DNA of 62,955 nt, the filler included, from Atractiella rhizophila (lineage: Eukaryota): assembly GCA_021432655.1 (NCBI GenBank). It is 6 parts of 6 records of this genome, joined end to end, with 100 filler letters (N's around TTAATTAATTAA, not from the genome) between each part and the next. Parts side by side here need not be neighbours in the genome. Positions count along the whole stretch, not along the records: positions 10,044 to 20,871 come from MU271950.1; 5 more parts are not named here. One strand, given 5' to 3'. The notes beneath the pieces were generated by a model that ran no database searches, was not told the origin of the DNA, and saw only the letters and a program-made list of their open reading frames with translations. Position numbers and translations under genes: made by a program. Positions 4,496 to 27,023 of this stretch are shown piece after piece; position 1 is the first letter of the stretch, and each line of letters opens with the position of its first letter.

Positions 4496-6840
4496 GTCTC
4501 GTCCCTAATAGCCTCGTAGCTGATCATCTCGTCCTCTTTCTTGTCCTCAAACAGCAGCATGATGACACACTGGCTCAAAGCCAAATTCAACTCTTTCGTT
4601 CCCCTTTTAAACTTGGTCTTCAGCGTCACGCTTGTCAACGAATGCTCGAATTGGAGTTTGCGCCCGGAATGCTTCGAGACATAGTAATATTTGAACTTGT
4701 CGAGCTGACTCTGCATGCTTTCCGGAATAATGACGTCCATGGGAGGATATGACGGCCAATTGCCTCTAGAGAGAACGTAGACATGTAGCTCACTGGTTGG
4801 CGCGTGTAATTTAAACAACTTCATGAAGTCGTTCGACACCTCAATATCCTTGAACATGGTCTCAAGTTTCGCTGTCCATCCTGCTCCACACTCTGCAGGG
4901 GTCATTAGAGAAGAAAAAGAGAAAACGGTAGAAGAGCATACCTTCTCGCAATTTAAGCAACAGTCGTCGTTCTGTATCTGTCGAGGCACTCTTGTTTAAC
5001 AGCAGACGCCTAGCTAAATCTCTCTGGAAATGTGCCTCNNNNNNNNNNNNNNNNNNNNNNNNNNNNNNNNNNNNNNNNNNNNNNNNNNNNNNNNNNNNNN
5101 NNNNNNNNNNNNNNNNNNNNNNNNNNNNNNNNNNNNNNNNNNNNNNNNNNNNNNNNNNNNNNNNNNNNNNNNNNNNNNNNNNNNNNNNNNNNNNNNNNNN
5201 NNNNNNNNNNNNNNNNNNNNNNNNNNNNNNNNNNNNNNNNNNNNNNNNNNNNNNNNNNNNNNNNNNNNNNNNNNNNNNNNNNNNNNNNNNNNNNNNNNNN
5301 NNNNNNNNNNNNNNNNNNNNNNNNNNNNNNNNNNNNNNNNNNNNNNNNNNNNNNNNNNNNNNNNNNNNNNNNNNNNNNNNNNNNNNNNNNNNNNNNNNNN
5401 NNNNNNNNNNNNNNNNNNNNNNNNNNNNNNNNNNNNNNNNNNNNNNNNNNNNNNNNNNNNNNNNNNNNNNNNNNNNNNNNNNNNNNNNNNNNNNNNNNNN
5501 NNNNNNNNNNNNNNNNNNNNNNNNNTGGAATAGGTCGCGCATCGATTTGAGGAGGTCGACCCGGCGAAGGAGGGAAGCGAGGCTCCGAATGTCGTCTAAA
5601 CGTCGATCGTCCATCATGCGCGGTAAGCCCCTCTGCAGTATGATCTCACCCCGCGAACCACCTATGAGTTCTTTCAGTGCGAGCTCGACTACCTCTGTTG
5701 GGCTGAGGATCAGTAGCTCGCATCGCGCCCGCTCGCTTTTCAGCCGTGTTTGTGTATGTGAGACGTAGTCCCATGGCGCCAATTCATCCGCTATCAACCG
5801 CTCGGCCTCGGATGAATAATAAGTGGAGGTGGAGGATACGAAGGGGGCGTAGAATAGCGACTGGTGAAGCGAATGGGAAAGACTGGAAAGATGCGACAGA
5901 ACAGATGTGCAAAGAGGGAGAGAAACGTGTGTACCGTCTCGATCGGCGGTGATGAGTGTGAGGAAGGTAGTTTGGAGTTTGGTGCCTAGGACTGATGGCA
6001 GGGATGTNNNNNNNNNNNNNNNNNNNNNNNNNNNNNNNNNNNNNNNNNNNNNNNNNNNNNNNNNNNNNNNNNNNNNNNNNNNNNNNNNNNNNNNNNNNNN
6101 NNNNNNNNNNNNNNNNNNNNNNNNNNNNNNNNNNNNNNNNNNNNNNNNNNNNNNNNNNNNNNNNNNNNNNNNNNNNNNNNNNNNNNNNNNNNNNNNNNNN
6201 NNNNNNNNNNNNNNNNNNNNNNNNNNNNNNNNNNNNNNNNNNNNNNNNNNNNNNNNNNNNNNNNNNNNNNNNNNNNNNNNNNNNNNNNNNNNNNNNNNNN
6301 NNNNNNNNNNNNNNNNNNNNNNNNNNNNNNNNNNNNNNNNNNNNNNNNNNNNNNNNNNNNNNNNNNNNNNNNNNNNNNNNNNNNNNNNNNNNNNNNNNNN
6401 NNNNNNNNNNGCGAAGTGAGGTAAGCAGGGTCGCAATGCTTGAGCTGCTTGAAGCTGGGAGAGCAAGTCGACGATCGCTTATTCTTGATTACCAGCTTTT
6501 TTGGGGGCCGCGCAAACGATCCACTTCTGCAGAGCCTTTGGGATTAAACATTTTGACAACCCTTGAAGCAGAGCGAACACGTCCTTTTTGCTGTGGAGGT
6601 GCTCTTCAGAACTGCTAGAGTGGAGCAAAGTCAGGAGAAACTAAAGACGATACCAAGTCATCCTGCTCACGTGATTTCCGAAGAACCATCGAACGTTGAA
6701 TCTGCTTGGTTTTTCGTCTGTTATAATGCTTGGTGGCCTATAGCAGGAGCAAAGCAGTACGGATCTTGGTGCGTGATGAACAGATTGTGGCCTGAGCTGC
6801 TTCAAAAGTTTGTCGATTGCGCGGCCGTGGCAGCTTCATG
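4496..6840 (-). CDS. Cullin (most like cullin-4), fragmented by N-gaps
   Basis: EAHFQRDLARRLLLNKSASTDTERRLLLKLRE / intron 4893-4941 / ECGAGWTAKLETMFKDIEVS...GNWPSYP...KHSGRKLQF...KELNL are cullin homology motifs. Cullin-repeat-like helices at 5525-6007. The 5' end is approximate and the C-terminal neddylation domain falls in the gap. Confidence 0.85.
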
Positions 6841-7363
6841 ACTGGTCTCATCAGAGTCCGCGCTGCTCAAGAGCTCTCATTGCATCTCCTAACCTTTCCA
6901 TATGATCAATACTTCACTGCCCACTTGAGCATGACTTTCTAGACAATGTTGCTGGCAAATGAATGAATGAATTCCTACGTGTTCCCTTGGCCAGTAGCGG
7001 GTTGGTTCAGTCAAGTGACTGGCGTCATTGGCAGGGTCCAATCCTAGTAAAATGAAGCGTAATATCTTGTGCTATCGAATTTATGGTTAAAGAATTATGT
7101 TCTTGTATCCCATGGAGAATGAATGGAGTCGTTCAACAAGAGTCTGCCAGGCCATGACTGCAAAACGATGCAATATAGAATACAGTTTCTACGTCTCCAA
7201 TCTTGGTCGAGCTGCTTGAAGTGGCTTGTGTGATGTTTTACCGTGGAAGGAGTCTTGCTTGCTCAACTCTCTAATGTATGTCTTGGACTCTTGTTGAAGT
7301 TACTGACTCGTACCCTACCCCATAGAAAAGAAAAGAACTCCCCCGAATATTTCTTTAACAAAG

Positions 7364-8851
7364 ATGAAGGGCCTACTGGCCTCCCTTTTCTGCCTCTTTC
7401 CCAGCGCTCCACCGCCTACACCCGACATCACTCCCCCTCTTCCCCCGGAAATCATTCTTCACATCATCTCCTTCCTTCCTCTTTGCTCTCTTCGCCATGT
7501 CACTCTAGTATCGAAAGCATTCCGTGCACTCTCCCTCCCATACCTCTTCCGACACCTCGAACTCAAACACAAAAACTATAAGTCGCTCCACGACGTAATA
7601 TCCGGCAATGAAGGATACCGTCGCTTTGTTCGGACGCTTAGGATGCAACAGGAGCCAGCAAGCCTCTACGACCACTGTACTACTTGGGAAGAACTAGTAC
7701 ACTTTGCTGGGATGGTGCCGCAAGTGTCGGCACTGGAGATCATCACCTTCTACAAGGCGGAAGGCTCCGATGTTATACCTTTACCAAAGATGGAGAATCT
7801 GTGTCGACTCAAGATTGTGATCTTAACACGGAGCGAGATCGATGCACACTTGCTTCTTCCCCACCTTCATTATTCAAGAGGCCTTAAGATTCTTAATCTG
7901 CGACGAACCATTCTAAGACCTTCACAGGAGACTCCGTTCACGTTCGCATTGGAGAGTTTAACGCTGCACCAGGCCGTGTGTACAAACGCCTTGGATCTGT
8001 TCCAGGCTTCGCAGTACACGTTGACGCATCTTTCGATCGACGATATATCGTTCTCAAGAAGCGCGAAAGATATGTTCGATCTCGTGATGCTCTTCAAGAG
8101 ACAGTTGCGAGAGCTCCGCATCGAATTCTTCAACCACGTCGAGTTCAGCGTCGTCAAACTAGATTTGCGTCAACTGCCAGTTCTGAAGATTCTCAAATGG
8201 TGGGAGTTTCGAATCGACGGAGCTCTTCTTTATGGTGCACCCTCTCTGCTCGGTTGCACTGGCTTGGAGGAGCTCTCGATCTTCAAACTTGGAGTTCAGA
8301 CTCTCCCTGGAACACCGTCTATGCGCCTTCGCAGGATATCGCTTTACGGTCACAGACACCGATACGATGTAGAGACATGCATCGCACTTTTCTCTTCTTC
8401 TAAGCCCTCACTTCGCTCCCTCATGATGGACGGATGCTTCAACGCCCCTGCCGATTACCTTTTTCTTGTCCAATCCATATGTACTACCCGAACGGCTGTA
8501 AGGATGGTCGCCTACGCGCAAGACAAAGGAGTGGAAGAAGTTGTCTCCAAGTCTGACATCCGTTTCTTGTCGATCAAGGGAGCGACAGACACGATAGAAC
8601 TGAGAAGTGAGAGCAAGGTCGAATACCTACATCTCACGCAGGAACACCCGGTAAAGGCTATTCTCCTCCCCAACTTGAGGGTATTATACCTGGATTGCGT
8701 GAGCCCAAATCAAAAGGTAGGGGAGATCGATGCCAGGATCACTCTGGTGAGAGGAGTAGAAGATGAGGCGGAACAAAGGTGGAAGAGCGCGGTGGAGGAA
8801 ATGCAAGATTCGATGTGCAGGGACGACGACCTGGGGAAATTGACTGTTTGA
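7364..8851 (+). CDS. F-box protein with leucine-rich (RNI-like) C-terminus, single exon, 495 aa
   Basis: LPPEIILHIISFL...LVSKAFRALSLPYLFRHL F-box, followed by repeated LxxLxL/I motifs. Confidence 0.85.
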   Translation: MKGLLASLFCLFPSAPPPTPDITPPLPPEIILHIISFLPLCSLRHVTLVSKAFRALSLPYLFRHLELKHKNYKSLHDVISGNEGYRRFVRTLRMQQEPASLYDHCTTWEELVHFAGMVPQVSALEIITFYKAEGSDVIPLPKMENLCRLKIVILTRSEIDAHLLLPHLHYSRGLKILNLRRTILRPSQETPFTFALESLTLHQAVCTNALDLFQASQYTLTHLSIDDISFSRSAKDMFDLVMLFKRQLRELRIEFFNHVEFSVVKLDLRQLPVLKILKWWEFRIDGALLYGAPSLLGCTGLEELSIFKLGVQTLPGTPSMRLRRISLYGHRHRYDVETCIALFSSSKPSLRSLMMDGCFNAPADYLFLVQSICTTRTAVRMVAYAQDKGVEEVVSKSDIRFLSIKGATDTIELRSESKVEYLHLTQEHPVKAILLPNLRVLYLDCVSPNQKVGEIDARITLVRGVEDEAEQRWKSAVEEMQDSMCRDDDLGKLTV

Positions 8852-10043: not shown

Positions 10044-10870
10044 CGGCCACTGCGTGGAGCTCTTGCCGCTGGCAGCCACTGCGTGGGGCCTTGCCTTCGG
10101 CGAGCACATATAGACATGGGTTTTGGTATGAATCTATATGATTTCATTATAGGTCTACATGCATCCGATTGTGAAAATTCAAAACTTCTCTGTACACTAT
10201 ATTTTCTGTCCTCTTATTCTCTATCCCTTGCACTTGGTGTAAATAAACTCGAAGATTCTTAGCGTTCGAAACTCTAGAAAGTCCTACGTAAAGTTGTCCA
10301 TGCGCAAAAACTGGTGTGTCCAAATACAATCCAACAGTCTCCACCGACTGGCCTTGTGACTTGTTGATGGTGAGACAGAAAGCCAATTTGACAGGGAATT
10401 GAAACCGCTGTAAGGTAAACGGGAATGAATTGGAGACCTTGCTATCCAATGCAATGCGTGGGATGAGGACTGAGGTGCCTGTGAATCCGCCTGTAATGAT
10501 GGTAGCCTCAATGACACGGGAGAGCAGCTGGGTGATGATCAACCGTGTACCGTTACAGAGCCCAGCTGAAGGATTGAGGTTCGTATTAGAATGATAGGGG
10601 CTCCAACTTTGAGATGAAGACGATGAAGAGGGAGACTCATCATATTGAGAGTATTGAGGTATTCAACTGTGAAGCCTTGTTGAATGTTCTCACTGTCCTC
10701 CATCAATCGGTCAGCACTAAGGTAGATACGTTCCTGTCGGGAGACAAATTGTCGAATAAGCTGATCATTTATCATGTCAACATAAACATTCCGGGCCGTA
10801 AGGACCATGCGCTCTTGAAAGTATTGCCTCAACTTGACTGGATTGACATCTTGCGTTATGGTGCTCAGTC
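10044..10870 (-). mobile_element. Helitron 3' remnant: PIF1-like helicase C-terminus plus subterminal hairpins
   Basis: ERMVLTARNVYVDMIN...LPLHRLHLKVGAPIILIR / NLNPSAGLCNGTRL...IPRI...RFQFPVKLAFCLTINKSQGQS...VFAHGQLYVGLSRV...TENIVYREVL is the standard Helitron Rep/Hel C-terminus (stop at 10147). One-base frameshift near 10580. GC-rich triloop hairpins at 10047-10104. Cut at 10870 by element A. Confidence 0.9.
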
Positions 10871-10884
10871 CTACTAACAGTACT

Positions 10885-11345
10885 TTAGGGTTCAACCCTG
10901 CCTCTTTCAGGAATGAGATCCAGGCTGAATCCTTGCCTCCTGGCTGCCTAGGGTACAACCCTCCTTCTGTGAGGAACAAGATCCTGGCTACATCCTTGCC
11001 TCTTAGGCACCCAGGGTACAACCCTGACGCTGTCGGAAACAGAATCCCACCTACATCCTTGCCTCCTCGCCGCCTAGGGTACAACCGTGCCTGTGTCAGG
11101 ACACGATTCTGCCTACTTCCTTGCCTCCTCGCTGCCTAGGGTACAACCCTGCCTGTGTCACAAACAGGATCCTGGTTATATCCTTGCCCTTCCATGCCGC
11201 TCAGGTTCTAAGCCTGCCTCTGCCAGGAACAGGATCCTGGCTATATCCTTGCCTCCTAGGCACCAAAGGTGCGACCCTGCCCCAATAAAAACAGCATCAT
11301 TACGAAAATGTTGGCTCTTAGTCAACCAGGGTACAACCCTGCCAT
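10885..11345. repeat. Outer-TIR tandem array, about 8 units of 63 bp (mirrored at ~13235-13635; also in copy 2)
   Basis: AGGGTACAACCCT-like motif at 10888, 10951, 11014, 11077, 11139, ~11203, ~11266 and 11329. Most units also carry an AGGATCCT-like palindrome. Confidence 0.9.
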
Positions 11346-12477
11346 AGATAGGAATAACAATCCAGTCAAAATGTCATGTACATATAAACACTCGCAGGCA
11401 CAGGCAATGTCCTCTCTAAGACACATCTTAAAACACTTATCCATTGAAATCCTCGCTTCATTGGACAACTCTGGTTCATATTTGGCATATATCTCCAATT
11501 AAACAAAGTACATTCAAAGTTGCAAAATTAATTTATAACAGTTTAGGAAGGTGTTCTCTATACGTTATTACGATAAGTGCAATTTTGGCAAAACTGCGCC
11601 AGATTGATTGGTTATCGACATCAGGTAGAGAGGCGTCTGAGGAGTGCCATTTTGTTGAAACTGGCCCATGTTGATAGGTTATCGACACCTTGTGTAGAGG
11701 GGTCTGAGTTGTGCAATTTTGTTAAAAACGTCCCCATTCGATAGGTTATCGACACAGGTGTAGAGGGGGTCACTGCAGGGAAATTTCGCTCAAAATGTCT
11801 CCATTCAATAGATGATCGACACAGGTGTAGAGGGGGTGCGGAAAGTGCAATTTCGCTCCAAACGTCCTAATCTCTAGCTCATCACCAAAGGTACTAATGA
11901 GGATGTGGAGACAAAGTTCATATATACATGCAATTTCCATATGAATGATATATCACTCCCACAGAGGTGCTCTAGCTCCATATGCTTCACCTGAAAAATA
12001 TTCCTGCAAACCACCTTCATCATTGCATGTTTTACAATCTCGCTCACACTTATGTTACAATTACTAGAAGATGTAAAAATTACAAAGGGTTTAGAGTAGC
12101 GTAACATGCGCCTGTCTTCCTGTAAAATGTTTCAGCAATGATCTTGTTTATTGGCACTAAAACCATTATTGATCTGTTTATCGTCATATTTGACCATAAT
12201 GATTCAAACAAGCTCTTTAATAGGTCACATTTGTTAAATCATTCATAACACATTTTCATTTTAATGGTATTACTATTTTCAATGGCTCCATCATCTTGAT
12301 CATTGGTCATACATTCAAGTTTGTGTATACACCAAATTGATTCTACACAATTCAGCCCCTTGTTTGCTCAAGCATACATCCAATACATGCACTACTTTCA
12401 GCAGGGTATCGATCTATCCATGTCTGTAGCCCCTGTTAAGCGGCTGCCTGGCTGAGTTTATGAAACTTTGGTTCTCA

Positions 12478-12980
12478 GACCCCTCTATACATGGTGTCGA
12501 TAACCTATCGACATGGGACGCATTCAACAAAATTGTACTCATGAGACCCCTCTATACCTGGTATCGATAACCTATCAACATGGGACACATTCAATAAAAT
12601 TGCGCGACTCAGACCCCTCTACACAAGGTGTCGATAACCTATCGACATGGGACACTTTCAACAAAATTGTACTCATGAGACCCGCTATACCTGGTATCGA
12701 TAACCTATCAACATGGGACACATTTAACAAAATTGTACTCATGAGACCTCTACACGAGGTGTCGATAACCTATCGACATGGGACAGATTCAACAAAATGG
12801 CACTCATGAGACCCCTCTACACCTGGTATCGATAACCTATCAACATGGGACACATTTAACAAAATTGTACTCATGAGACCTCTACACAAGCTGTCGATAA
12901 CCTATCAACATGGGCCAGTTTCAACAAAATGGCACTCCTCAGACGCCTCTCTACCTGATGTCGATAACCAATCAATCTGG
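12478..12980. repeat. Inner-TIR tandem array, 8 units of 65-67 bp with palindrome TGTCGATA-ACC-TATCGACA
   Basis: TCGATAACC at 12497, 12564, 12631, 12697, 12762, 12829, 12894 and 12961. About four inverted, more diverged units at ~11600-11860. Confidence 0.92.
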
Positions 12981-13646
12981 CGCAGTTTTGCCAAAATTGC
13001 ACTTATCGTAATAACGTATAGAGAACACCTTCCTAAACTGTTATAAATTAATTTTGCAACTTTGAATGTACTTTGTTTAATTGGAGATATATGCCAAATA
13101 TGAACCAGAGCTGTCCAATGAAGCGAGGATTGCAATGGATAAGTGTTTTAAGATGTGTCTTAGAGAGGACATTGCCTGTGCCTGCGAGTGTTTATATGTA
13201 CATGACATTTTGACTGGATTGTTATTCCTATCTATGGCAGGGTTGTACCCTGGTTGACTAAGAGCCAACATTTTCGTAATGATGCTGTTTTTATTGGGGC
13301 AGGGTCGCACCTTTGGTGCCTAGGAGGCAAGGATATAGCCAGGATCCTGTTCCTGGCAGAGGCAGGCTTAGAACCTGAGCGGCATGGAAGGGCAAGGATA
13401 TAACCAGGATCCTGTTTGTGACACAGGCAGGGTGGTACCCTAGGCAGCGAGGAGGCAAGGAAGTAGGCAGGATCCTGTTCCCGACAGCGTCAGAGTTGTA
13501 CCCTGGGTGCCTAAGAGGCAAGGATGTAGCCAGGATCTTGTTCCTCACAGAGGGAGGGTTGTACCCTAGGCAGCCAGGAGGCAAGGATTCAGCCTGGATC
13601 TCATTCCTGAAAGAGGCAGGGTTGAATCCTAAAGGACTGTTAGTAG

Positions 13647-14425
13647 ACCCATAATAGCTATTTCGCAACAGGGGGTAGGTCACAGCCAGTCGCTAACCCG
13701 AAGTGGTTATAACCAACCTGGAGAGCACTTCACAAGTTGTGGCCCATTGCTGATCCAAAATGTCAATTTGGTGACTGCAGTTGAACTTCACAGGTTGCAG
13801 CCTGTTGCTGATCTGAAATTGCTAATTTGCTACTGGAGGTGCACTTCGCAGGTTGCAGCCAGCAGGCCAACCGAAGTGACCATTTCGCGACTGGAGGGTT
13901 TACTGTCCCACGAGTGTGCTCTCTCGCGTTTGCAGTCTCGCGAGTTTGCAACCTAGCGTTTAGGTTCACCTCGCGAGTTTGCTGTCTCGTGAGTTTGTTG
14001 TCCTGCAAGTTTGCTCTCTCGCACATCTGCTTTCTTGCAAGCCTGCTCCCTCTCAACTACAGAGGCCCTTCGCAGGTTGCAACCCATTGCTGAACCAAAC
14101 TTGACCTTTCGTGACTAGAAGGCACTTCACATGCCAGCCAGTGACCTGAAGTGCCCACTTCGTGACTGGTAGCGAACTGGGCCCCCTCGCAATGAACCTC
14201 GCATGTTTGAGCGAGTTCGCTTCGGGGCTGATCCCACCTCGCGAACCATTTTGGCTGTCGCGTCCCAGCTGACGGGACTCAACGGTGTGTTCCGTCCCGT
14301 CAGGTTAGTTCCGTCAGTCAGAGCCTCGCAACTGGGCTGACGGGACTCACTGGCCCTGACCCTAACTCCGTTCCCCAGCCAACTTTGACTGACGGAATAG
14401 TTCCGTCGCGAAGGAATAGTAGTAG
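13647..14425 (-). mobile_element. Family B TIR element, copy 1 (truncated by element A)
   Basis: Ends GGAATAGTAGTAG at 14425. The reverse complement matches 18476-18706 and parts of 19546-20064. Confidence 0.85.
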
Positions 14426-15882
14426 GTGCGTTAGCAGCATCTGTGAACCGGTCGCACTGAGAAGTATATCTGGTTTGTAAAATAAACGTACGAATTGGTC
14501 CCAGGCAACATTCACTTTAGGGAAACTGGAAGGATTGGGACATAGGATCATTCAGGACAAGGAACACCGTTCGGCCTAGATGCGAGTCAGATCAAGTATG
14601 CTAATACAGAGCACAGAGACGACACCTACCTAACTCGAAAAGGGCCTAAAGAATGTCCAGGTTGAAGCTCTAATGTCCCTCTCTGCGTTGGCATCTTGGT
14701 TTGGCGAGTCACTTGATATGCATGGGCGGAATTCGCCGTCGTGTTCGTGCCGGCGTTGAGCAGCTTCACCATGTTTTCTCCTGCGGCTTTTCTTCCATTT
14801 CTGCAACTCCCCATCTACTATCTCGAAATGTGCCTGTTGAGCTTTCTAAGCGAAGGGTTAGCGGTAAACAACTGTTCATGGTGGTACAACTCAGGAGGAG
14901 GAAGGAACGATCTGAAGGAATACTCTTGTGAGCCGCTCTTTCTGTAACGGGATTGTGAGGGGTCGTTGAAAAGAGTTCTTCTATGCGATTTGTTCATGTA
15001 CCTCATTGTTGAGTTTTAAAAGCACAGTGGCTTGCAACTTTGAAATCCGAGGCCTGCAAATACATCTGTATCTGCTCGTCAATCCGCTGTGGCAGACCTA
15101 AAACTCTATTGATGACTTGCATTGCATGCTGCTACGGTGCTCACCATTGGGAATTTTAGAACACTCACTGCAGAACTTAGGCGTTCAAGTTCCATCTTGC
15201 TCCGTCAGGCAGAGCGAAACGAACTTAATAGTCAATATGTTTATCATCTCCACCTTCTGATAGTACAAAAGTGCCACCGGAATCACCAGCCAATTCCTTT
15301 CCCCACATCTTTGCTTCACGGGTCTGTTCACTAGTCCATTGTCCGAAGAAGAGAATAAGTTTGAACTTGGCAAAGAACCGAGGATCCGGCATCACCATTA
15401 GTACATTTTTGCTACTAAGGAACTTGACATTACAAGTTTACTTGTCTGTATAGTAGTCAGGTGGGATGAATCTATGAGTGTCGATGCAGAACAATCACAC
15501 CAAACTCGGTCCAGTCATGCTACGCTTCCCCAGTCCTTCTCATGAGTAGGTAATTGAGGCTAACCAGCCATTATTTCCAACTGTGTAATCATACGGTACA
15601 AACGAGTGGGTCAACCGTCCAGTCAACCAAAAGTCTACCGTGAGCACGAAAAAGGAGGTGGGACAAAATGGAGGACAACCGAGTCTCTGTCTGCTGCTTT
15701 CGAGGCCACCAAGTCCTCTGCATCGGCTTTTCAGATCACTTCTCGGCCCGCTCTGCAGCTTTGTTTTCAATCCACGGCAATGGTGCGGTCAGAAGCAGTC
15801 AAGTCGTCGCGTTCGCGTTCTTAGATGCTTGGATTATATTACTTCCAGAATCCGTATGTTCTGGTTTCCCCATACGAACGCT

Positions 15883-15893
15883 TATAAAAGGGC
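15883..15893 (+). promoter_or_regulatory. TATA box upstream of the cytochrome b561 gene
   Basis: TATAAAAGGGC followed by a pyrimidine-rich tract. The same 11-mer occurs on the minus strand at 33631-33641. Confidence 0.5.
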
Positions 15894-16118
15894 AATACAC
15901 CCTTCGTCTGTCCCCTTTTTTCCCCTTTTTCTCAGCCAAATCCAGCTGTCGGAAAGGCATACTGCCCTTACTTACCCTATCACTGAGACGAGCCGCTGAT
16001 CAGAACAGATTTCGAATGCAGGTGAGTGACAGTCACGTTTTTTCGGCGTGCGCCGTGAGGATGAGCGAGGTGGCCTAGGGGATGAAACTGATTTGCCATC
16101 CCTTGGTTGGGACACAGG

Positions 16119-17442
16119 ATGCAGCTCCTCTTTTTCCTCCTAGCACATCTACTCACCCAGGTTCTCGCTCAGTATCCAACACCAACACCCAGTGCGTTTT
16201 CCTTTCTGTCTCACACCCCTATTGCTAAGACCCTTCTTTTCTGGTCTTTGTTTCGTGAATTTTCTTACTGATCCAAATCTGCACATTGGGACACATTCAG
16301 CATCTGCACCAGTATCACCTTTACCATTTTGGACCGCCATCGATCACGTAGGATGGACACGATTTGAACGAAAGGTGTTGGGTCACGGTAAGTCTTTCAT
16401 TTCAATTCCATCTGATTCCTCCCTTCCAACTTTCTCTTACTGATTCGCTTTGTGACATAGCTATTCTCGGCGGCCTCACTTTCACCGTGTTCTCTCCCAC
16501 CGCTATCCTAATTGCACGTTGGTTTCGCGGCCGTCGCTGGTTCCCCTTCCACGCCTCCCTCCAGACTCTCACCTTGTGCACCACTCTCACTGGATTCATT
16601 CTCATCAATTTTGCCGTATACGAGAAGGTGCATTTTTACGAGACCTGGAACTATGGACCCCACCACCGGATGGGCATCTTCGTTTTTGGTTTCGTCATGA
16701 TCCAATTCTTCCTCGGTGGTGCCGCGTACATGTTCTTGAAGCCCATCACGGAAAGATATAGGAAGATCGTGAACTGGTGCCATATGGTACTTGGGATCAC
16801 CATCAGCATATTGGGATACATTCAAGGTTCTTTTTTCCCCTCCCTTCTTCGTCATTCATTGATCTAAACGATCCAGTCTACTTCGGCTTTCACCATTGGG
16901 AGAATCTCCCGAACCCACGCGAATCTAAGCACGTTCCCACCGCCGTCCGCGTCATCTACTGGCTTCTCGTCGCCACCGAGATCATTGTGTACTTCTTGGG
17001 AGTTTGGAGGGATAGGAGAAACTATTTTCAACTCCCTGTGCAAGAGGGAAACAGCAGAGGACACCTCAATCCGCCAAATTCGTCCGATAAGGAGAGCTTC
17101 GACGCCAAGAGACCAACGACTGCTACCCCGCTCAAGCAACCCAACCCTGACGCTGGCTCTCCATCAGCGTTCCCCTCCGTCACGGAACACGCCAGTAGCG
17201 CCCCTTATAGAGCGACGCGTTCAGATACTTCGAGTGTCCCGCGCTTCAACATGGTTCCAGAGCTTCAGAGTACAAGTCCGCGCCCTCCGACTGGAATGAG
17301 TGTCAACAATCCGCACTTCCCAGATACCTATAGCCAGTGGGATCATGCCCCTCAATCCTTCAGCTCGGTCGCTATTCCAGGGGCAAACTACGATCAAACG
17401 CAACCAGACACGTACAGCCTTTGGGCACATGGAGCAAGATAA
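16119..17442 (+). CDS. Cytochrome b561-domain membrane protein with signal peptide and disordered C-terminal tail (4 coding exons)
   Basis: MQLLFFLLAHLLTQVLAQ signal peptide. Four heme-type His in TM helices: VLGHAILGG, WFPFHASLQ, PHHRMG, NWCHMVLG. Introns ~16192-16300, ~16388-16460, ~16827-16877. Confidence 0.8.
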
Positions 17443-17766
17443 GGAGGAGAATAAACTTTGGGAACGAAGACGTTCGTTAGTTGACGTTAATGTTTACCTT
17501 GGTCATTGATGAAGGAGTCTAGCAAATTGCCTTGTGAAGTAGTGTACATGCTGTTTCTGCCCAAATTCCTCGAAACTGCCGATTCCTACGCAGCATCACT
17601 TGTTTCGTTTCAGGAGCTGGCACATCCGCTGCTCGGTACTCAATATCCATTTACTTGTATTTGTAAAATTCTGCAGAATCGCTTGAATCCGGGTCCGCTT
17701 TCTTTTGGGCTTTCAGGCACAGTAACTTTATAGTCAAGCTAGTGCTGATCAGTACAATTCGATGCA

Positions 17767-20549
17767 TAACACTACTTTAGGGTTCAACCCTGCCTCTTTC
17801 AGGAATGAGACCCAGGCTGAATCCTTGCCTCCTGGCTGCCCAGGGTACAACCCTACCTCTGTTAGGAACAAAGATCCTGGCTACATCCTTGCCTCTTAGG
17901 TACCCAGGGTATGACCCTGACGCTGTCGGGAACAGGATCCTGGCAATATCCTTGCCTCCTAGTCACCCAGGGTACGACCCTGCCTCCAATAAAAACAGCA
18001 TCATCACGAAACTGTTGGCTCTTAGTCAACCAAGGTAGAACCCTGCCACAGATAGGAATAACAATCCAGTCAAAATGTCATGTACACATAAACACTCGCA
18101 GGCACAGGCAATGTCCTCTCTAAGACACATCTTAAATCACTTATCGATTGAAGTCCTTGCTTCATTGGACAGCTCTGGCTCATATTTGGCAGATATCTCC
18201 AACTAAACAAAGCGCATTCAAGGTTGCAAAATTAATTTATAACGGTTTAGACATGTGTTCTCTATACATTATTAACGATTAGTGCAATTTTGTCGAAACT
18301 CCGCCAGATCGATAGGTTATTGATAAAAGTCAAAGAGGGGTTTAAGGAGAGCAATTTTATTGAAACTGGCTCATGTCAATAGGTTATCGACATCAGGTAG
18401 AGAGTGGTCTGAGGGGTATGATTTTGTTGAAAGTGGTCCATGTCGATAGGTTTTCGACACCAGGTATAGAGGGGTCTACTACTATTCCTTTGCAACGGAA
18501 CTGTTCCGTCGGTCAAATTGGCTGGGGAACGGAGTTAGGGTCAGGGCCAGGATGAGTCCTGTCAGCCCAGTCGCGAGGCTCTGACTGACAGAACTAACCT
18601 GACAGGACGGAGTGCACCATTGAGTCCCATCAGCACAGACGTGACAACCAAATTGTTTCACGAGGTTGGGATCAGTCCCGATGCGAACTCACTCAAACAT
18701 GCGAGGAAGCAGACACGCGAGACTGAGAACTCACAAGAGCAGCCAACTTGCGAGACTGCAAACTCGTGAGGCGCCAACAAACTCACGAGAAAGCAGACAT
18801 GTGAGACTGCAAACTCGTGAGAGAGCAAACTCATGAGACTGCAAACTTGTGAGATAGCCAACTCGTGAGACTGCAAACTCGCAAGATGGCCAACTTGCGA
18901 GACAGCGAACTTGATAGGATATTGCTGGAGCAGTCTTGATTCGCTCCAGCAGTCCTGGCTTCGCTGGAGTGAACTGCACCCCGCCTGAGCGAGCAGGAGT
19001 TCGTCCAAGCAAGCCAGGCTTTGCTTGAGCGAACTGACTTTGCCCAAGCAAGCCTGGCTTTGCAGGAGCGAAGTGCATTTCGCCTGAGCGAGTCTGGCTT
19101 CGCTGGAGTGAGCTGGGGTCAGCTGGAGTGAACTGCACTTCCCTGGAGCGAGCCAGACTTAGCTGAAGCGAACTGACTTCTTCCTAGCAAGTCTCACTTT
19201 GTTAGAGCGAAATGCACTTTGCCCAGACGAGCCAAGCCTAGCTGGAGCGAACTGACTTCTCCCCAGCGTGTCTGGCTTTGCTGAAGCAAACGGGAGTTAG
19301 CTGCAGCAGTCTCGCTTCGCTTCAGCAGTCCTGGCTTCACTGAAGCGAGCAGGAGGTTGCGTAACTGAGACTGCCTTCGTATCTGCACTCCCAGTTTTGT
19401 TGAAGCGAGCAGGAGATCACTACAGCAGCCTCACCTCGCTTCAGCAGTCCCAGGCTTGCCCAAGCGAACCTGATGTCCTTGAAGCAAGGACCACTTCGCA
19501 TCAGCAGTCCCTGGCTAACAGGAGCAAAGCAGGTCCTATGAAGCGGAGGTTGGGATCAGCCCCGACATGAACTCGCTCAAACATGCGAGGTTCATCGTAA
19601 GGGTGCCAAGTTCGCTAGGAGTCGCGAAGTGGGCACTTCAAGTCGTCCGCCAGGTGCGAGTGCACCTCCCGTCGCAAAATAACAATTTCAGATCAGGAAC
19701 AGGCTGCAACCTGCGAAGTTCAATTGCAGTAACGAAATGACCATTTCCAAAGTGCCCTCCAATCGCAAAATACCATTTCGAGTGAGTGGCTGGCTTTGAA
19801 CTACGAAGTGCACCCCCAATCGCGAAATAACCATTTCGGATCAGCAACTGGCTACAACCTGCAAAGTATGCCTCTAGTTGCAAAATAGCCAGTTGGCACT
19901 AGCAGTGGGCTGCAACTGACCTCCAGTCACGAAATAAGCACTTTGGATCAGCAACAGGCCACAACTTGCAAAATGCCCTCCAGGTGCGAAATTACCACTT
20001 CGGGTGTGCAGCTGATTGTGACCTGCAAAGTGTACCTTTGTTGTGAAATAACTATTATGCGTCTGCAACATGCAAAATTCACCCATTTCACAAAAGAATC
20101 ACTTTTGTGCAGGAACTAGCTATAACATGGCCATGACCCCAACTCTGTTCCACAGCCTAATTTGACTGATGGAACAGTTCCGTCATGAAGGAATAGTAGT
20201 AGAGGCGGGGTTGTACTTGGGCAACTAGAAGGTAAAGATTCAGCCAGGATCCTGTTCCTGACAGAGGTGGGGTTGTACCCTAGGCAGCAAGGAGGCAAGG
20301 GTGTCGGCAGGGTCCTGTTCCCAACAGCATCAGGGTCATACCCTGGGTGCCTAAGAGGCAAGGGTGTAGCCAGGATCTTGTTCCTGGCGGAGGCAGGGTT
20401 GTACCCTGGGCAGCCAGAAGGTAAAGATTCAGCCAGGATCCTGTTCCTGACACAGGCAGGGTTGTACCTTGGGCAGCCAGGAGGCAAGGATTCAGCCAGG
20501 GTCGTGTTCCTGGCAGAGGCAGGGTTGAACCCCAAAGCACTGTTAGTAG
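17767..20549. mobile_element. Family A element, copy 2 (internally deleted, interrupted by family B)
   Basis: Left arm 17767-18475 is colinear with copy 1's left TIR but has an eroded terminus. Right arm 20203-20549 consists of 63-bp units ending CTGTTAGTAG. Confidence 0.85.
18476..20202. mobile_element. Family B TIR element, copy 2 (both ends; about 75-bp TIRs, repeat-filled interior)
   Basis: CTACTACTATTCCT...ACGGAACTGTTCCGT...GGCCA at the left end and its inverted copy at ~20128-20202. Interior of short degenerate repeats (GAGACTGCAAACTCGTGA-like at 18710-18910; CAGTCCTGGCTTCGCTGGAG-like at 18925-19540). Confidence 0.88.
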
Positions 20550-20971: not shown

Positions 20972-21933
20972 GCCCATCATCCGCAATATATCGCCAAGGA
21001 AGGATGAGGGAAGGAACTGACTTGAAATTTTGCACCCACTCCAAAAACTTCTTCATTCCTCCTCTTCTCAAACAGACCCATCAAAGGAGACTTGACGGCT
21101 TCCATCTCGGAAGCAGGGACCTTGGAGATCTTGCCATCGCGGAAGACGTAAGATCCAGCGATCTGCTTGAATTCCAGGTAGCGGGTCACGTCTGTGTGGA
21201 CGAGCATCTTGGTCAATTCTCCATTCGACATCATAAATTTCGGAATCAGGTCCACTGAGTAGTCGCGATCGCGTCCTAGCTCGGCTGGAGGAGCTGCTCC
21301 GTCGCGGAACTTGCGGAAGAGCTGAATGAAGAAAGAGTCAGTGCTGACCATTGATAAAGTAATCACGTTGAGGAGTTGCCGTCCATGGATCAGAGAGACT
21401 CAGTAGGCCGTTGTGGATAATGATTATACCATCATCCAATCCCATCCGCACAAGTGTGGAAAGTAAGGAGGGATTCAGTTGGGGTATCTCTTCACCGTAG
21501 TCGTAACTTGATCAATACCAGAGAGCTACTTGCATGGAGGTATTGCTGTCAAGCAAATATCACTGCTAATCGGAGCTCCATAAATCCACTTGATATCACC
21601 TCCTTGAAGCAATGGCCTCGAAAAAACGAAGCAAGACATGGGTTGATCCGATGAATATTTCCCAAGACTCCATACTGACCCGTTGCCTTGATATGGCGAT
21701 CGAATGAACATACCTGGCTGAGATTCAAACTGGCTGACTCTCCACCATAATAGTCGTTCCTGTCCATGTGCAGGACCTTCTTCCCCTCAACTGAAAGCAG
21801 GCCGGAGAGGATACATTCCGTGAGTCCCGTTCCGAGGACGATGTAATCGTCTGTTCCCATCCATCAAAGGACACATCTCTTCAGCTTCGTTCTAGAGGCA
21901 AAGAGTAGAACCAAGCGTACAGGTCTCATCCAT
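20972..21933 (-). CDS. GDI1: Rab GDP-dissociation inhibitor, 5' part (3' end lost at spacer)
   Basis: [48 protein letters not shown] / ...[21 protein letters not shown]...[14 protein letters not shown]...LMGLFEKRR. Introns 21851-21920 and ~21322-21713. One-base frameshift near 21057. Confidence 0.97.
21370..21672 (-). ncRNA. Candidate structured intronic RNA in GDI1 intron 2
   Basis: Intron of about 390 nt with nested complementary segments: GGATCA/TGATCC, AGGCCATTG/CAACGGCCT, GGAGGT/ACCTCC enclosing TCAAGTGGA/TTTGCTTGA, AATCCC/GGGATT, GGATGATG/CATTATCC. Family not recognised. Confidence 0.3.
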
Positions 21934-22103
21934 GGTGATTTATGAGGGAGCAAAGCGAGAGATGAGAACAGATGCAGTTCGATGCACTCGATCGTGGTTG
22001 TCCAAAGGCAGGCGAAGGTTCCGAACGTGTTGTTGCGACCATTCCGGATCCGGGACAAACGACAAAGTTGCAAAATCCCACTTCCCCAACTCACTCCTTC
22101 CCA

Positions 22104-23510
22104 ATGTCACTTCCCCTTCCCCTTCCCCTCGCTCGCCCATCCCTTTTTCTCCTCCAAGCGCGCCACCTCTCCTTCGCTCGTACCCGCGGGTCAATACGTC
22201 GCGCAACTCGTCTAAACAGGGAGAAACGGGCACTGGGCTCTTTCGAGCGGCACTTGGCGAATCAGAGGAGGGTGGAAGCGGGAGACCTCACACTTACACC
22301 ACGGTTGCCGGTTACACAGGCCATTAGCAATTGCTGGGTGAGTCTTTTTCAAAAGTGAACAATGGGAGTCTTGCATTTCGACGGCAAGCGAAAGGACAGA
22401 TTATTTACTTTCTTTTATTGTTAAAAGACGTCGTATGACTGTTCGACGCATGCTGTCCCATTTACTTTTAAGAGTTGGTTAAGGTAAAGTTTGCTTAGCT
22501 TGGAAGTACCAGACGAATATGAAGGGCAGTCTGTCCCGAAGTTGGGAATGTCGAATTTAATCACTTTTGCTTAAAGGATACAGTGCTGATACTCGCTAAG
22601 CGGAGCCTTAATGGCTCCTTTCGCAAGAGTACACGCTTTACACACCTCCATGTTCTTGTGCGCATACCTTGACCATATTAGAAATAGCTTGCTTTCCCCT
22701 ATTCATTCTAAACCCTGTCTCCAGTGCTCACTTTGCATCGTTACAGGAGGACAATGAGAAAGTACGGCGGCGTTCCACCTTATACCTCTCGATGCGGGTG
22801 CGTACCGCCAAACAGATAAACATGAATGCGGTGCGAGGACGAATATTCTTGCCTAATCCGCCTTATGTGCCAAAGGGGAAGAAAGGGTGTATGTCGTTTA
22901 CTCTAACTTACTGTACTTCATCTGAATGTTCTATGGGGATAGCGGAGGTGATCGCAGTTTTTGCTGAGGGCAAGAAGGCGGAGGAAGCGCGTGCACTGGG
23001 GATTGAGCATGTTGGTGGTTCAGATATGCTGCAAGAGGTTCGTCCATATCCATACTCCTAACGTGGGCACTGTCGGGATTAATTTGCATGGTTTAGATCC
23101 TACAAGGTCTCATAAATCCTTCAAAAATCATTGCTACCCCCTCTTTCGAGCGCATCTTCCGCGGTGCGCAAGTGGGCAAAATCCTAGGACCGAAAGGTCT
23201 CATCCCCTCCAAACGTCGAGGGACAGTAACCGAAGACCTCGCGAAAGCTGTCGCTGAGGCACGATCCGGCATCGACTTTCAAGCTGATCCTCATGGACTC
23301 ATACGCATGACGTTGAATGGGGATCGATTGAATCCCGTGAAGAGAGAACAGAATGTTCGGCATGTCTTGAAGTTTGTGGCGGATATCGCTTTGGGCGGAA
23401 ATGGTGAGGGTAGCTCGGTGGAGAGGAATACGAAAGGTGCAGGTGCGGTGGTGAGAAGCGCTCATTTGAAGGGGTGGAAGGGGAAAGGAGTGTTTGTCAC
23501 TGATCCGTAG
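22104..23510 (+). CDS. MRPL1: Mitochondrial ribosomal protein uL1m (4 exons)
   Basis: Arg-rich presequence; VRGRIFLP...IAVFAEGKKAEEARALG...VGG...VGKILGPKGLIPSKRRGTVT is the L1 signature. Introns 22338-22746, ~22889-22941, ~23038-23096. Confidence 0.9.
22343..22645 (+). ncRNA. Candidate structured intronic RNA (H/ACA-like layout) in uL1m intron 1
   Basis: A closing stem CAAAAGTGA/TCACTTTTG encloses a multibranch domain, followed by AAAGGA (ANANNA), a second hairpin and ACA at 22640-22642. Confidence 0.4.
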
Positions 23511-24934: not shown

Positions 24935-27023
24935 ATGGCTGCACCTCATTACATTCGCCAGCGCACCCCTTCCACCTCGACACTTCGTGGCGCGCCTTCC
25001 CTCACATTACGCACTGCAGCCTCCAACGCTTCTCTTTCAGGCCGTTCGCATCCCTCACCCGCCATCACACCTGCGTCGAGAGGGCGTCATTCGTTGTATG
25101 GAGTGGAGGATCGCGTTGTTTTAGATTTGGGAAGGAGGGCATGGAAAGTGGGGTTTGGCGGAGAAGCAAGACCTAGAGGAGTGGTCCTGGTTGAAGAGAG
25201 CGAAGAGGGTAAAGAGCAGACGGAAGAAGAGGAGGAAGAGAAGATGAAAGAGAGACTGAGAAAGGTATTTTTCGAGTGCGTTTTTTCTTTTCGCAGGCAG
25301 GAGGAGAGACAGGAGGATGAAGTGTTGACTGATATCTACCTCTGGTGTTGCTAGACTACTCATGATCGACCCTAAGGCTAGAAAAGTCATCGTTATTGAG
25401 CCACCGTTAATGCCCATGAAGATGAAGGAGATGATTGCGAGGCTACTCTTTGAGAATCTACAGGTTTGTTTCCTCTTTTGCGAGCAGGAGAAGCTCAATT
25501 ATAAACGTGCAGGTTCCATCAGTCTCTTTCGCTCCCACTCACCTGCTCTCTCTCATCACCACTGGGTCAATAACGGGTCTGGTCGTCGACTGTGGTCATT
25601 GTGAGACGACGGTAGTGCCAGTGAGTTTATATTACATCACGGCACAATCTTAAGATGGTTTATCCAGATCTTCTCCTCGCGTCCACTCTATCCTATCCTC
25701 GTAACCACAGTTGTATCTGGTCGCCGCCTAACTCAACGCCTACGTGCCTTGTTACTACACTTTGGAAAGTTCTTCCCTAACCCAACGAACCTGAATCAGA
25801 TCGCCATGTCTTCCTTCAAGCTCAAAGCGACAGACGTGGTCGGGGTGCCAAAAGAAGTGTTAACCAAAGAAGTGTGCGAGGATATCAAATCCCGTGCGCT
25901 TTTCGTCGGGGAGCCTTTCAACGTTCCGTCATCCAGAGAGAGTGACCTCGCTTCTGACCAGGAGAAGCAGAGGGGAGAGAGACTGTTGCCAACGGAGAAA
26001 CTGGAGGAGGACGATGAGGAATTCCTGGCTGCGCTCAAAGAGAGATATATCGCTAACTCTTCGGCAGCCTCTCTATCAATCCCGATACATTATCCTCAGA
26101 CGGCTCTCGGATCCACTAGCGTGCTGAGAGGAACAATTGTAGTTCCGGGGTGGATTAGGGAGAGGGCAACGGAACTTCTATTTGAGAGAGGAGATGAGGA
26201 TGAGAAAAGCATCACGGAAGCGATACTGGAGTGTCTATTGAAAGTCAGTCTTCCATTCTGCAGCGTTCTTCGCTCTTGACGGGTGTAATAGGTACCAACT
26301 GACCTCCGCATCCCTCTCGCCAATTCTATCCTTGTTGCTGGTGGAACGGCCATGCTGCCAGGCTTCATCCCTCGACTACGACTAGAGCTAATTTCAGCCC
26401 TCGATTCAGCTTCTGTATCTTCTTCTTCCGCAGGAGAAGAACAGACACTCGATCCCTTCGAACGGCCGTCAACTCCATCATCTACCTCCTCCACCTCATT
26501 TCGGCGGAAGCGGAAGCGGGAGGCGCTGGAGGTGTACCGCAAACGATCAAAGTTCACACCGCTTTCATCCCTCGCTGGAAAGAACATTATTGCCATCGTC
26601 AACGATCCATCCCCTCCTCCTTTGGCGGTAGACGAAGCACCTACTCCAATGCCCACCTCCCCCATGCACTCTAGGCATGGTTCCCTTGCCACCCCCAGAC
26701 ATCACTCTCAGCCGTTGCCACCGAAAGACACAAAATCCTATACTCTGCCTTTGCCAAAGGTGCCCTATGCTGCAAATGCGGGGAAAGCACCTCATTTCAC
26801 CCCCAGTTTATTACCTTGGATCGGGGGCAGTCTTGCGGGCATACTAAAGACGGGAGGAGAGGAGATCTTGAGGGAGCGGTGGGATATGGGTATGCCTGTC
26901 GAAGGTGAAGAGGAAGACGAGGTGCAAGAAGACCAGGTTCTCCCGAGCGACAAGCCGAAAGAGCGGAGGAAACTCGATCTCCCCGACTGGACGAGGAAAG
27001 ATCCGACGTCAGGGTCCGCTTGA
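24935..27023 (+). CDS. ARP10: Actin-related protein, Arp10/Arp11 (dynactin) type, multi-exon
   Basis: RVVLDLGRRAWKVGFGGEARPR, DPKARKVIVIE, GLVVDCGHCETTVVP, WIRERATELLFE, SILVAGGTAMLPGFIPRL, PWIGGSLAG. Confidence 0.85.

What the first reader, a model, noticed from the sequence alone, without database searches (positions are those of the whole stretch)
10871..20549. Two different non-autonomous TIR families share CTACTA...TAGTAG ends and nest in each other without an evident target-site duplication
Seen: family A ends read CTACTAACAG (10871, 13646, 20549) and family B ends read CTACTACTATTCC (14425, 18476, 20202); the interiors are unrelated. A sits in B at 13646/7 and B sits in A at 18475/6 and 20202/3. 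At these three junctions the host can be reconstructed from the sister copy, and it already has CT at the join (B copy 2 reads TATTATGCGTCT|GC at 20064; A repeats read GGGGTCT| and GCCTCT|). Known: CMC/EnSpm ends are CACTA with 2-3 bp TSDs, and Tc1/mariner duplicates TA. Inference: one transposase mobilises both families. The ends are either CTACTA with no TSD, ACTA inserted next to CT, or CTA inside a cTA target. I recognise none of these as a standard superfamily signature.
Basis: partly seen in the sequence, partly recalled or inferred. Interest (0 to 1): 0.7.

Follow-up and report, generated by a model that had tools for sequence, protein, structure and literature searches.

The report
Chromosome-end units grafted by one end
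These repeats are not nested cut-and-paste transposons but the sharply defined inner ends of fungal chromosome-tip units, one carrying a telomere-linked helicase gene with a hidden DNA recombinase domain, that get joined by one end to almost any C in the genome and pile up pointing toward the telomere.

Summary
The CTACTA ends and the CT at three joins are real. Nesting of two TIR families is not supported. Genome-wide, neighbouring ends point the same way (60 of 63 pairs). Copies run from 14 bp to over 5 kb, and the interrupted host never resumes (0 of 19). The reconstructed target is N|C(T): C in 48 of 51, CT in 36 of 51, CTA in 2 of 51. Five of 27 telomere arrays abut such stacks on the CTACTA strand. 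[quoted passage not shown] Long A copies lead toward an SNF2-like gene. Window A1 is a true foldback (arms ~99% identical) that joins unrelated DNA; B2's 'TIR' is a fusion of two copies. Best reading: the TLH recombinase grafts these ends onto N|C(T) sites, replacing distal DNA (mechanism inferred, ~0.5). Main rival: template jumping by the Coprina-like reverse transcriptase in the same stacks. This scan earlier noted the TLH recombinase fold (at least 9 genomes) and stacked TLH units in another genome; the junction rule and polarity were measured here.

The parts
10147..10870 (-). Helitron PIF1-helicase fragment, cut off at 10870 where the A end is joined; target read N|CA
   Evidence: Pfam Pif1_2B_dom; 40 scored genomic relatives; sister continuation
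10871..13646 (.). A1: two-ended foldback form of family A. Arms ~99% identical over ~820 bp (one 63-bp unit missing from the right arm); 63-bp arrays 10886-11279 and 13322-13631; inverted 67-bp arrays 11576-11867 and 12477-12975; unique middle 11868-12476. Joins a Helitron on the left to a B interior on the right
   Evidence: no TSD
10871..10899 (+). A terminus: CTACTA, a built-in TTAGGG seed, and a 13-bp palindrome (6-bp arms) that recurs in the 63-bp units
   Evidence: sequence; palindrome scan; a 14-bp A end directly capped by telomere at L158
13647..14425 (-). B1: one-ended 779-bp B copy starting at 14425, cut off by the A end at 13646 (target N|CT)
14426..17762 (.). 3.3-kb single-copy segment with a cytochrome b561-like ORF (16352-17442, +); stacks point away from both of its ends
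   Evidence: 79% paralogue on C361
17763..18475 (+). A2: one-ended A copy with a decayed terminus, cut off in the 67-bp array by the B end at 18476 (target N|CT)
18476..20129 (+). B2-long: the upstream part of the TLH unit (terminus, 19-bp palindrome in B ends, 16-bp and 20/40-bp repeat arrays); sister copies continue from here into the TLH gene
20126..20202 (-). separate 77-bp B copy from the opposite direction, fused to B2-long at CATG; mimics a TIR
   Evidence: join bridged by a Logan contig
20203..20549 (-). A3: one-ended 347-bp A copy, cut off by the B end at 20202 (target N|CT)

Best explanation
A and B are the inner (centromere-side) ends of chromosome-tip units. B is the start of a TLH unit: repeat arrays, then a zinc finger + tyrosine recombinase (YR)-fold + RecQ helicase gene read toward the telomere. 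A is a partner with the same end, whose long form leads toward an SNF2-like gene. SHOWN: ends are fixed at CTACTA; they join at N|C(T) without TSD; everything beyond the target is lost; ends stack in one polarity and can be capped by TTAGGG on the same strand; a TLH-domain homologue has a YR fold with conserved R-K-R-H-Y. INFERRED: the TLH YR nicks the unit end and a target, and ligates the unit's 5' C(T) end to the target's 3' end, needing only 1-2 bp of identity next to the nick, as IntDOT does. Helicase-driven copying then replaces the distal DNA, and telomerase caps it. New grafts land on older ones and truncate them, which builds the stacks. Stacks become internal when such ends later fuse to other DNA. 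Facing ends arise by fusion of two stacks (B2) or by snap-back copying from A's inverted 67-bp array (A1), after which the new end is grafted to an unrelated site.
For: Polarity: 60 of 63 neighbouring end pairs in the same orientation; 44 of 45 element-derived flanks in the same polarity, 24 of 24 in non-palindromic hosts. Target: C 48/51 (background 0.26, p 5e-25), CT 36/51 (background 0.08); no other strong bias from -6 to +8. Host resumes 0 of 19. 5 of 27 telomere arrays abut A/B stacks in the same polarity. All 4 close TLH copies (C40, C779, C11, C260) lie downstream of a B end on the same strand. PF12013 + helicase architecture. Invariant or near-invariant R129, K163, R252, H282, Y291 in 31 sequences. 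Model pLDDT 83; best match XerA Z 12.9, rmsd 3.4 over 172 residues; ranks 1-29 are YR, topoisomerase IB or YR-fold proteins. N-terminal part resembles integrase SAM domains. End length is constant: extra CTA unit in 5 of 125, p 0.09 against chance. No hammerhead in A or B, one in the Coprina-like element. Genes carried by A and B are sense on the CTACTA strand, so their mRNAs cannot template it. M. oryzae TLH regions have a discrete boundary at the first or second C of HAR-C, with palindromic and TTAGGG-bearing repeats (PMC1635262, sections 13 and 22). IntDOT needs only 1-2 bp identity at the first cleavage (PMC2817482 abstract).
Against: No activity is shown, and all TLH copies read here are broken. 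The first catalytic Arg codon reads Gln in two copies and a stop in one. The fold was predicted for a homologue (P0018, ~24% identical), from 31 sequences. Foldseek gave no E<=0.001 hit and the sequence profile found no PDB chain. 20 of 27 telomere arrays have no A/B sequence within the ~2 kb read, and 64 of 125 intact ends run into other DNA, many after under 100 bp; this needs frequent later breakage and fusion. Three distinct terminal clusters contain inverted AGTAG pieces that look like polymerase fold-back. A divergent TLH copy on C71 has no detected CTACTA end. A has no recombinase of its own. A1 and the L094 pair have near-identical arms, as a foldback transposon would. Many scored targets lie in the elements themselves, so junctions are not fully independent.
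Confidence: 0.52

Rival explanations
1. A and B are non-autonomous terminal retroelements. An antisense RNA ending in UAGUAG is copied onto broken chromosome ends by the endonuclease-less Penelope (Coprina-like) RT, priming on 1-2 nt and jumping between templates.
For: A Coprina-like RT + DEDD exonuclease element with a type I hammerhead lies in the same stacks in the same polarity. Very short copies (14-60 nt), variable truncation and fold-back pieces. A stem-loop plus (TAG)n resembles a LINE/SINE 3' tail (recalled).
Against: Every Coprina-like junction carries TTAGGG (14 of 14 rows, 13 loci), while none of 148 A/B flanks ends in it. No hammerhead in A or B. Tail length is constant. The cargo genes are on the wrong strand for an mRNA template.
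Confidence: 0.2
2. Host break repair does the joining. The TLH protein, or telomere loss, only releases a linear fragment with a defined CTACTA end; broken chromosomes then capture or copy it by end joining or microhomology-primed synthesis.
For: Many telomeres here sit on unique DNA. Duplicative capture of subterminal DNA by failed telomeres and internalised relics are documented in Pyricularia (PMC8381367 passages). The B2 fusion uses a 4-bp microhomology.
Against: End joining would be expected to nibble the element end and use variable microhomology (general knowledge). Here 125 of 148 ends are intact and 48 of 51 targets share the same first base.
Confidence: 0.16
3. One reading: TIR/foldback DNA transposons of an unknown superfamily, nested in each other, with partner ends later lost by adjacent deletions.
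For: A1 and the L094 pair have 98-99% identical arms. Subterminal repeat arrays resemble CACTA or foldback elements (recalled). Several facing A pairs exist (window, L082, L094, L097).
Against: 0 of 24 opposite-polarity junctions in non-palindromic hosts, where half are expected. Flanks of facing pairs are non-contiguous in 3 of 3 testable cases (window A1, L082, L094). B has no second end. A genuine TA-duplicating TIR element inside A in L094 does show TSD and host resumption. No transposase seen in the fetched extensions (output was cut).
Confidence: 0.08
4. HUH/rolling-circle one-ended transposition of Helitron or IS91 type.
For: One fixed end, variable far end, no TSD, a palindrome near the end; Helitrons are abundant in this genome.
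Against: The host should resume after the element but does not (0 of 19). The target is N|C(T), not A|T. No Rep domain was seen in the extensions.
Confidence: 0.04

Closest known systems
TLH region I/II of Magnaporthe oryzae (PMC1635262; passages and sections 13, 22 read)
   Same: Repeat arrays with palindromes and TTAGGG motifs upstream of a TLH gene; a discrete inner boundary at a C (HAR-C unit CCTAACCAGTAATA, close to A's start CTACTAACAGTACT); variable distal truncation; a second unit with its own discrete boundary further in.
   Different: Described as a subtelomere domain, with no joining mechanism or target rule in the parts read; all 11 copies are telomeric. Here ~150 ends, mostly internal, stacked, with a measured N|C(T) target and a partner family lacking TLH.
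TLHcr of Fusarium oxysporum (bioRxiv 10.1101/2024.02.27.582403; parts 1-3 of 4 read)
   Same: 6-13 kb TLH units, whole or truncated, single or in arrays; C2H2 + TLH domain + RecQ.
   Different: There the units are flanked by telomere repeats on both sides; here there is no TTAGGG at the inner junction. The TLH domain is left without a function in that paper.
Coprina/Athena endonuclease-less Penelope elements (PMC8557442, PMC13159263; passages read)
   Same: One fixed end, telomere-directed polarity, truncated head-to-tail stacks; such an element shares the stacks here.
   Different: A and B have no RT, no hammerhead and no telomeric repeat at the junction; their genes face the other way.
IntDOT of CTnDOT (PMC2817482 abstract) and fungal YR elements, Crypton and Starship (search listing and recall)
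   Same: YR fold; no true TSD; 1-2 bp identity at the first exchange is enough for IntDOT.
   Different: Those integrate two ends into one site and the host resumes. Here one end is grafted, distal DNA is lost, and the YR is fused to a RecQ helicase.
MoTeR relics of Pyricularia (PMC8381367; passages read)
   Same: Short truncated terminal elements internalised and linked to rearrangements.
   Different: MoTeRs are retrotransposons that insert into telomere repeats.
Foldback (FB) and CACTA/EnSpm TIR transposons (recalled)
   Same: Long arms made of subterminal repeats (A1).
   Different: No TSD, flanks unrelated, most copies one-ended.

Membership tests
TIR DNA transposon (CMC/EnSpm, Tc1/mariner, foldback) | Target-site duplication | tested here: not met
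   0 of 7 pairings with a direct repeat of 2 bp or more; CTA target 2 of 51; positive control with TA duplication in L094
TIR DNA transposon (CMC/EnSpm, Tc1/mariner, foldback) | Two ends inserted into one site, host contiguous | tested here: not met
   host resumes 0 of 19; 3 of 3 testable facing pairs non-contiguous
TIR DNA transposon (CMC/EnSpm, Tc1/mariner, foldback) | Terminal inverted repeats | tested here: inconclusive
   met for A1 and the L094 pair (98-99% arms); not met for B or for most A copies
TIR DNA transposon (CMC/EnSpm, Tc1/mariner, foldback) | Autonomous partner with a DDE transposase and the same ends | tested here: inconclusive
   none seen in the extensions read; no genome-wide transposase profile search was run; no Repbase/Dfam available
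Fungal TLH unit | C2H2/PF12013 + TLH domain + RecQ helicase gene | tested here: met
   long B copies; (gene frameshifted; absent from the window copies)
Fungal TLH unit | Repeat arrays and a discrete boundary upstream of the gene | tested here: met
   4 of 4 close copies start at a B end
Fungal TLH unit | Position next to telomere repeats | tested here: inconclusive
   A/B pieces abut 5 of 27 arrays, but none of the 4 TLH-coding copies was seen next to a telomere; the assembly has 1998 contigs
Tyrosine recombinase | Catalytic-domain fold | tested here: met
   homologue P0018: XerA Z 12.9, rmsd 3.4, 172 aligned; Foldseek best E 2.6e-3 to lambda integrase
Tyrosine recombinase | Conserved R-K-(H)xxR-H/W-Y residues | tested here: inconclusive
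   R, K, R, H, Y conserved across homologues in the right order, H-to-Y spacing 9; not superposed on the solved active site; first Arg altered in the 3 copies of this genome
Tyrosine recombinase | Cleavage through 3'-phosphotyrosine | not testable with these tools
   needs biochemistry
Coprina/EN- Penelope (for A and B) | Reverse-complement telomeric repeats at the RNA 3' end | tested here: not met
   none of 148 A/B flanks ends in TTAGGG, against 14 of 14 rows for family C
Coprina/EN- Penelope (for A and B) | Hammerhead near the 3' end | tested here: not met
   type I descriptor hit only C among 13 reference pieces, both strands; Rfam gathering found none anywhere, including C
Coprina/EN- Penelope (for A and B) | RNA intermediate | not testable with these tools
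   no RNA holder listed
Helitron | Insertion at A|T with the host resuming; Rep-helicase | tested here: not met
   target N|C(T); host does not resume

The most novel reading that the evidence does not exclude
Fungal TLH units are a so far unrecognised class of selfish element: a tyrosine recombinase-RecQ fusion grafts one defined end onto N|C(T) sites anywhere in the genome, replaces the distal chromosome arm, seeds a new telomere, and also moves partner units (A, with SNF2-like cargo). It would act as a chromosome-truncating, translocation-making, one-ended transposon.
Probability: 0.4. Interest if true: 0.9.

Novelty: new variant of a known kind. Interest (0 to 1): 0.72.

Why it matters
TLH genes sit at most chromosome ends of many fungi, and the papers read leave the function of the TLH domain and the way the units spread among ends open. 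This genome preserves about 150 junctions, enough to read a target rule (N|C(T)), a strict polarity and the loss of distal DNA. Together these give an exact substrate and a predicted catalytic tyrosine, so the question becomes directly testable. If right, it names an enzyme for terminal truncations and translocations in fungal genomes and a mode of transposition not among the known ones. It also warns that facing pairs of such ends are easily mis-annotated as TIR transposons.

Tried and rejected
cTA/TA target: rejected. Simple nesting: rejected. My own interim idea that A1 is two independent copies fused: rejected, the arms are 99% identical. RT-type tail slippage: not supported. Rfam scan of the window and 11 loci: 0 matches. 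Pfam on single frames of the broken TLH gene: mostly no hits. PDB sequence searches with the RT and with the TLH alignment: nothing significant. PF00270 search of the genome did not reach the TLH copies and was uninformative. Cross-species DNA: A end in viral contigs 0; B end in metagenomes 0; TLH homologue P0025 in metagenomes 0 confirmed; so no outside junctions were examined. No RNA holder listed. Scan look-ups by sequence and one by words returned nothing. Literature searches without a paper linking TLH to a recombinase: 'telomere-linked helicase'+'tyrosine recombinase' 0; 'TLH domain'+'recombinase' 0; five- and six-term searches listed 5 and 1 papers, of which three were checked by passage search without such a link; one search listed 30 of 81, none read beyond the listing except the ToxB preprint; 'Atractiella'+'telomer'+'transpos' 0. 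Subscription papers (e.g. the 2009 TLH-motif paper), Repbase and Dfam were not available; figures (junction alignments in PMC1635262 Fig. 3) and supplements were not seen.
Full report
OBSERVATION. The six ends are at the stated coordinates with the stated sequences, and A and B interiors share no self-BLAST hit. Sister copies continue with CT at 13646/7, 18475/6 and 20202/3. The window is fungal; a protein from another contig of the genome carries the label Atractiella rhizophila. The nesting is not as described. The far end of A1 (10870/1) abuts a Helitron PIF1 helicase fragment. Of 11 sister Helitron copies, 9 continue CAGGG, 1 CGGGG and 1 something else, and none of that continuation occurs at the window's other outer flanks. 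The two A pieces around B2 are 82-84% alike and non-contiguous. B2's right 'TIR' is a 77-bp copy from the other direction, fused at CATG (20126-20129), exactly where long B copies go on into other sequence. It is 85% identical to B2's left end, against a 92% median for other B ends. No pairing of ends has a direct repeat of 2 bp or more (0 of 7).

GENOME-WIDE ANATOMY. Pattern searches gave 96 A ends and 68 B ends (reversed controls 35 and 7). I mapped 85 and 64 of them, leaving out the window's contig and 9 isolated weak hits. Of 63 neighbouring pairs under 3 kb apart, 60 point the same way, 1 faces inward and 2 are back to back (a few contigs are segmental duplicates). In the fetched loci, 154 ends collapsed to 148 distinct junctions, 125 with an intact CTACTA. 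Of these 125, 42 run into the next same-direction end, 64 into other DNA, 15 to the end of the fetch, 3 into gaps and 1 into telomere; lengths run from about 20 bp to over 5 kb (facing pairs are counted under 'other DNA'). Where the flank is itself element sequence, it reads in the same polarity in 44 of 45 cases, and in 24 of 24 for hosts without internal inverted repeats. Two-ended insertion would give half in each direction. For hosts other than the A/B repeats, the host never resumes downstream (0 of 19; three had under 400 bp to search and one of these is A-like).

TARGET. For 51 intact ends with at least two sister sequences, the base that followed in the unbroken host is C in 48 (background 0.26, p 5e-25) and CT in 36 (background 0.08). 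A at +3 occurs in 8 and CTA in 2, and no other position from -6 to +8 is strongly biased. The target is N|C(T) with 1-2 nt shared with the element end. T appears at the junction even when the host lacked it, so the element supplies at least TACTA. End length is constant (A two CTA units, B three; an extra unit in 5 of 125, p 0.09). As a control, a TIR element inside an A copy in L094 duplicates TA and the host resumes.

TELOMERES. Of 27 telomere arrays inspected over about 2 kb, 5 abut A/B-stack sequence on the CTACTA strand (L158, L075, L086, L104, L041). In L158 only 14 nt of A precede the telomere, at A's own TTAGGG seed. One more array has B-long sequence 1.2 kb away, one is an internal array facing an A stack, and 20 show none.

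WHAT THE LONG COPIES CARRY. B continues into a gene with a PF12013/C2H2 region, a middle domain and RecQ helicase motifs, read away from the CTACTA end: a telomere-linked helicase (TLH). All four close copies (C40, C779, C11, C260) lie downstream of a B end; a 40%-identical copy on C71 has no detected end. Homologues conserve R, K, R, H, Y in YR order. A model of homologue P0018 (pLDDT 83) matches XerA at Z 12.9 (rmsd 3.4, 172 residues), and ranks 1-29 are YR, topoisomerase IB or YR-fold proteins. Foldseek agrees only weakly (best E 2.6e-3) and the sequence profile finds no PDB chain. The copies here are frameshifted, and the first Arg codon reads Gln, Gln and stop, each one transition from a CpG-containing Arg codon. 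Long A copies pass through an inverted 67-bp array into a shared extension (L093, L113, L152); in L152 this is followed by an SNF2-like ORF on the same strand (feature score 0.95). A third family, C, in the same stacks is an endonuclease-less Penelope-like element: RT, DEDD exonuclease, a type I hammerhead, and TTAGGG at every junction (14 of 14 rows, 13 loci). It is antisense to the CTACTA strand, as a retroelement should be. I built no RT tree; 'Coprina-like' rests on motifs and layout.

THE WINDOW. From the right, B1 starts at 14425, runs 779 bp and is cut by an A end. From 17763 an A copy is cut by B2; from 20549 an A copy is cut by a 77-bp B; these two stacks are fused at CATG. The 3.3-kb cytochrome b561-like segment between them is single-copy, with stacks pointing away from both its ends. 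A1 is different: its arms are ~99% identical over ~820 bp, far above the best other copy (92.5%), and diverge inside the second 67-bp unit. That fits snap-back copying from A's inverted array (inference). The L094 pair is similar (98%); the pairs in L082, L097 and L115 are 77-84%. In the three testable facing pairs the flanks are unrelated, so even two-ended A bridges two sites.

MECHANISM. Best reading (0.52): the TLH tyrosine recombinase joins the unit's 5' C(T) end to a nicked N|C(T) target, the helicase drives copying toward the tip, distal DNA is lost, telomerase caps, and later grafts truncate earlier ones. The anatomy is shown (about 0.85); the enzyme assignment is inferred. IntDOT, a YR, recombines with 1-2 bp identity at the first cleavage (PMC2817482 abstract). 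In M. oryzae, TLH regions end at a discrete boundary at the first or second C of HAR-C, whose unit resembles A's start, and carry palindromic and TTAGGG-bearing repeats (PMC1635262 sections 13, 22 and passages). Rivals are template jumping by the Coprina-like RT (0.20), host repair capturing a released end (0.16), a TIR/foldback transposon with adjacent deletions (0.08) and HUH one-ended transposition (0.04). Against the best reading: broken genes, a fold from a homologue, most ends internal and short, most telomeres free of A/B, and three fold-back clusters that look polymerase-made.

NOVELTY. TLH units are known (PMC1635262; bioRxiv 2024.02.27.582403, parts 1-3 of 4; PMC5576322 passages). 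My searches found no paper assigning a recombinase to the TLH domain (subscription papers, Repbase and Dfam not covered). This scan's earlier notes report the YR fold in at least 9 genomes, and stacked TLH units with a sharp CCTAAC start in another genome; these are unchecked and not independent support. Verdict: new variant of a known kind, interest 0.72; categorically new if the one-ended YR mechanism is shown (probability 0.4, interest 0.9).

Noticed in passing
L141 (G000:C2:220500-230499, -) and L090:1411-4809: Endonuclease-less Penelope-like element with a 649-aa open frame, frameshifted RT C-terminus, DEDD exonuclease ORF, type I hammerhead and TTAGGG at its junctions; interleaved with A/B stacks.
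   Followed up: partly
L158 (G000:C113:1-110): A telomere sits on only the first 14 nt of an A end, suggesting that A's internal TTAGGG seeds telomerase.
   Followed up: partly
L062:1230-1560 (G000:C11): An A stack is fused face to face with a 15-unit telomere array, whose inner side is TLH 3' sequence and an A-like seed.
   Followed up: no
L066:1174-1199, L114:5566-5610, L074/L124 terminal cluster: Terminal clusters with inverted AGTAG pieces and an 18-bp perfect palindrome; could reflect hairpin intermediates or snap-back synthesis.
   Followed up: partly
L094:4840-8683: 3.8-kb TIR element with a TA duplication inserted in an A repeat; served as a positive control.
   Followed up: partly
L066:2653-5884; L111:3033-3482: A ~450-bp module found inside many A/B copies matches the flank of a gypsy-like element in L066, probably a solo LTR.
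   Followed up: no
L166 (G000:C1044): Another Helitron copy breaks off at the same position as window 10870/1 and joins unrelated DNA starting with C.
   Followed up: no
L150:2870-4050 (G000:C71): A divergent TLH-like copy (40% identity) without a detected CTACTA end.
   Followed up: partly
L105, L114, L118, L099: Some B copies run through more than 5 kb of tandem repeats instead of into TLH; their far end was not reached.
   Followed up: no
L083/L084 (G000:C116): Two near-identical 6-kb stretches 10 kb apart, each with a divergent A-like end; possible tandem duplication or further family.
   Followed up: no
window 3514-6478, 7307-8851, 20977-22327, 24935-27023, 28094-29312, 38326-41276: Ordinary-looking fungal genes around the locus (cullin, F-box/LRR, Rab GDI, actin-related protein, RNase III, Atg13-like); names recalled from ORF translations, not searched.
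   Followed up: no
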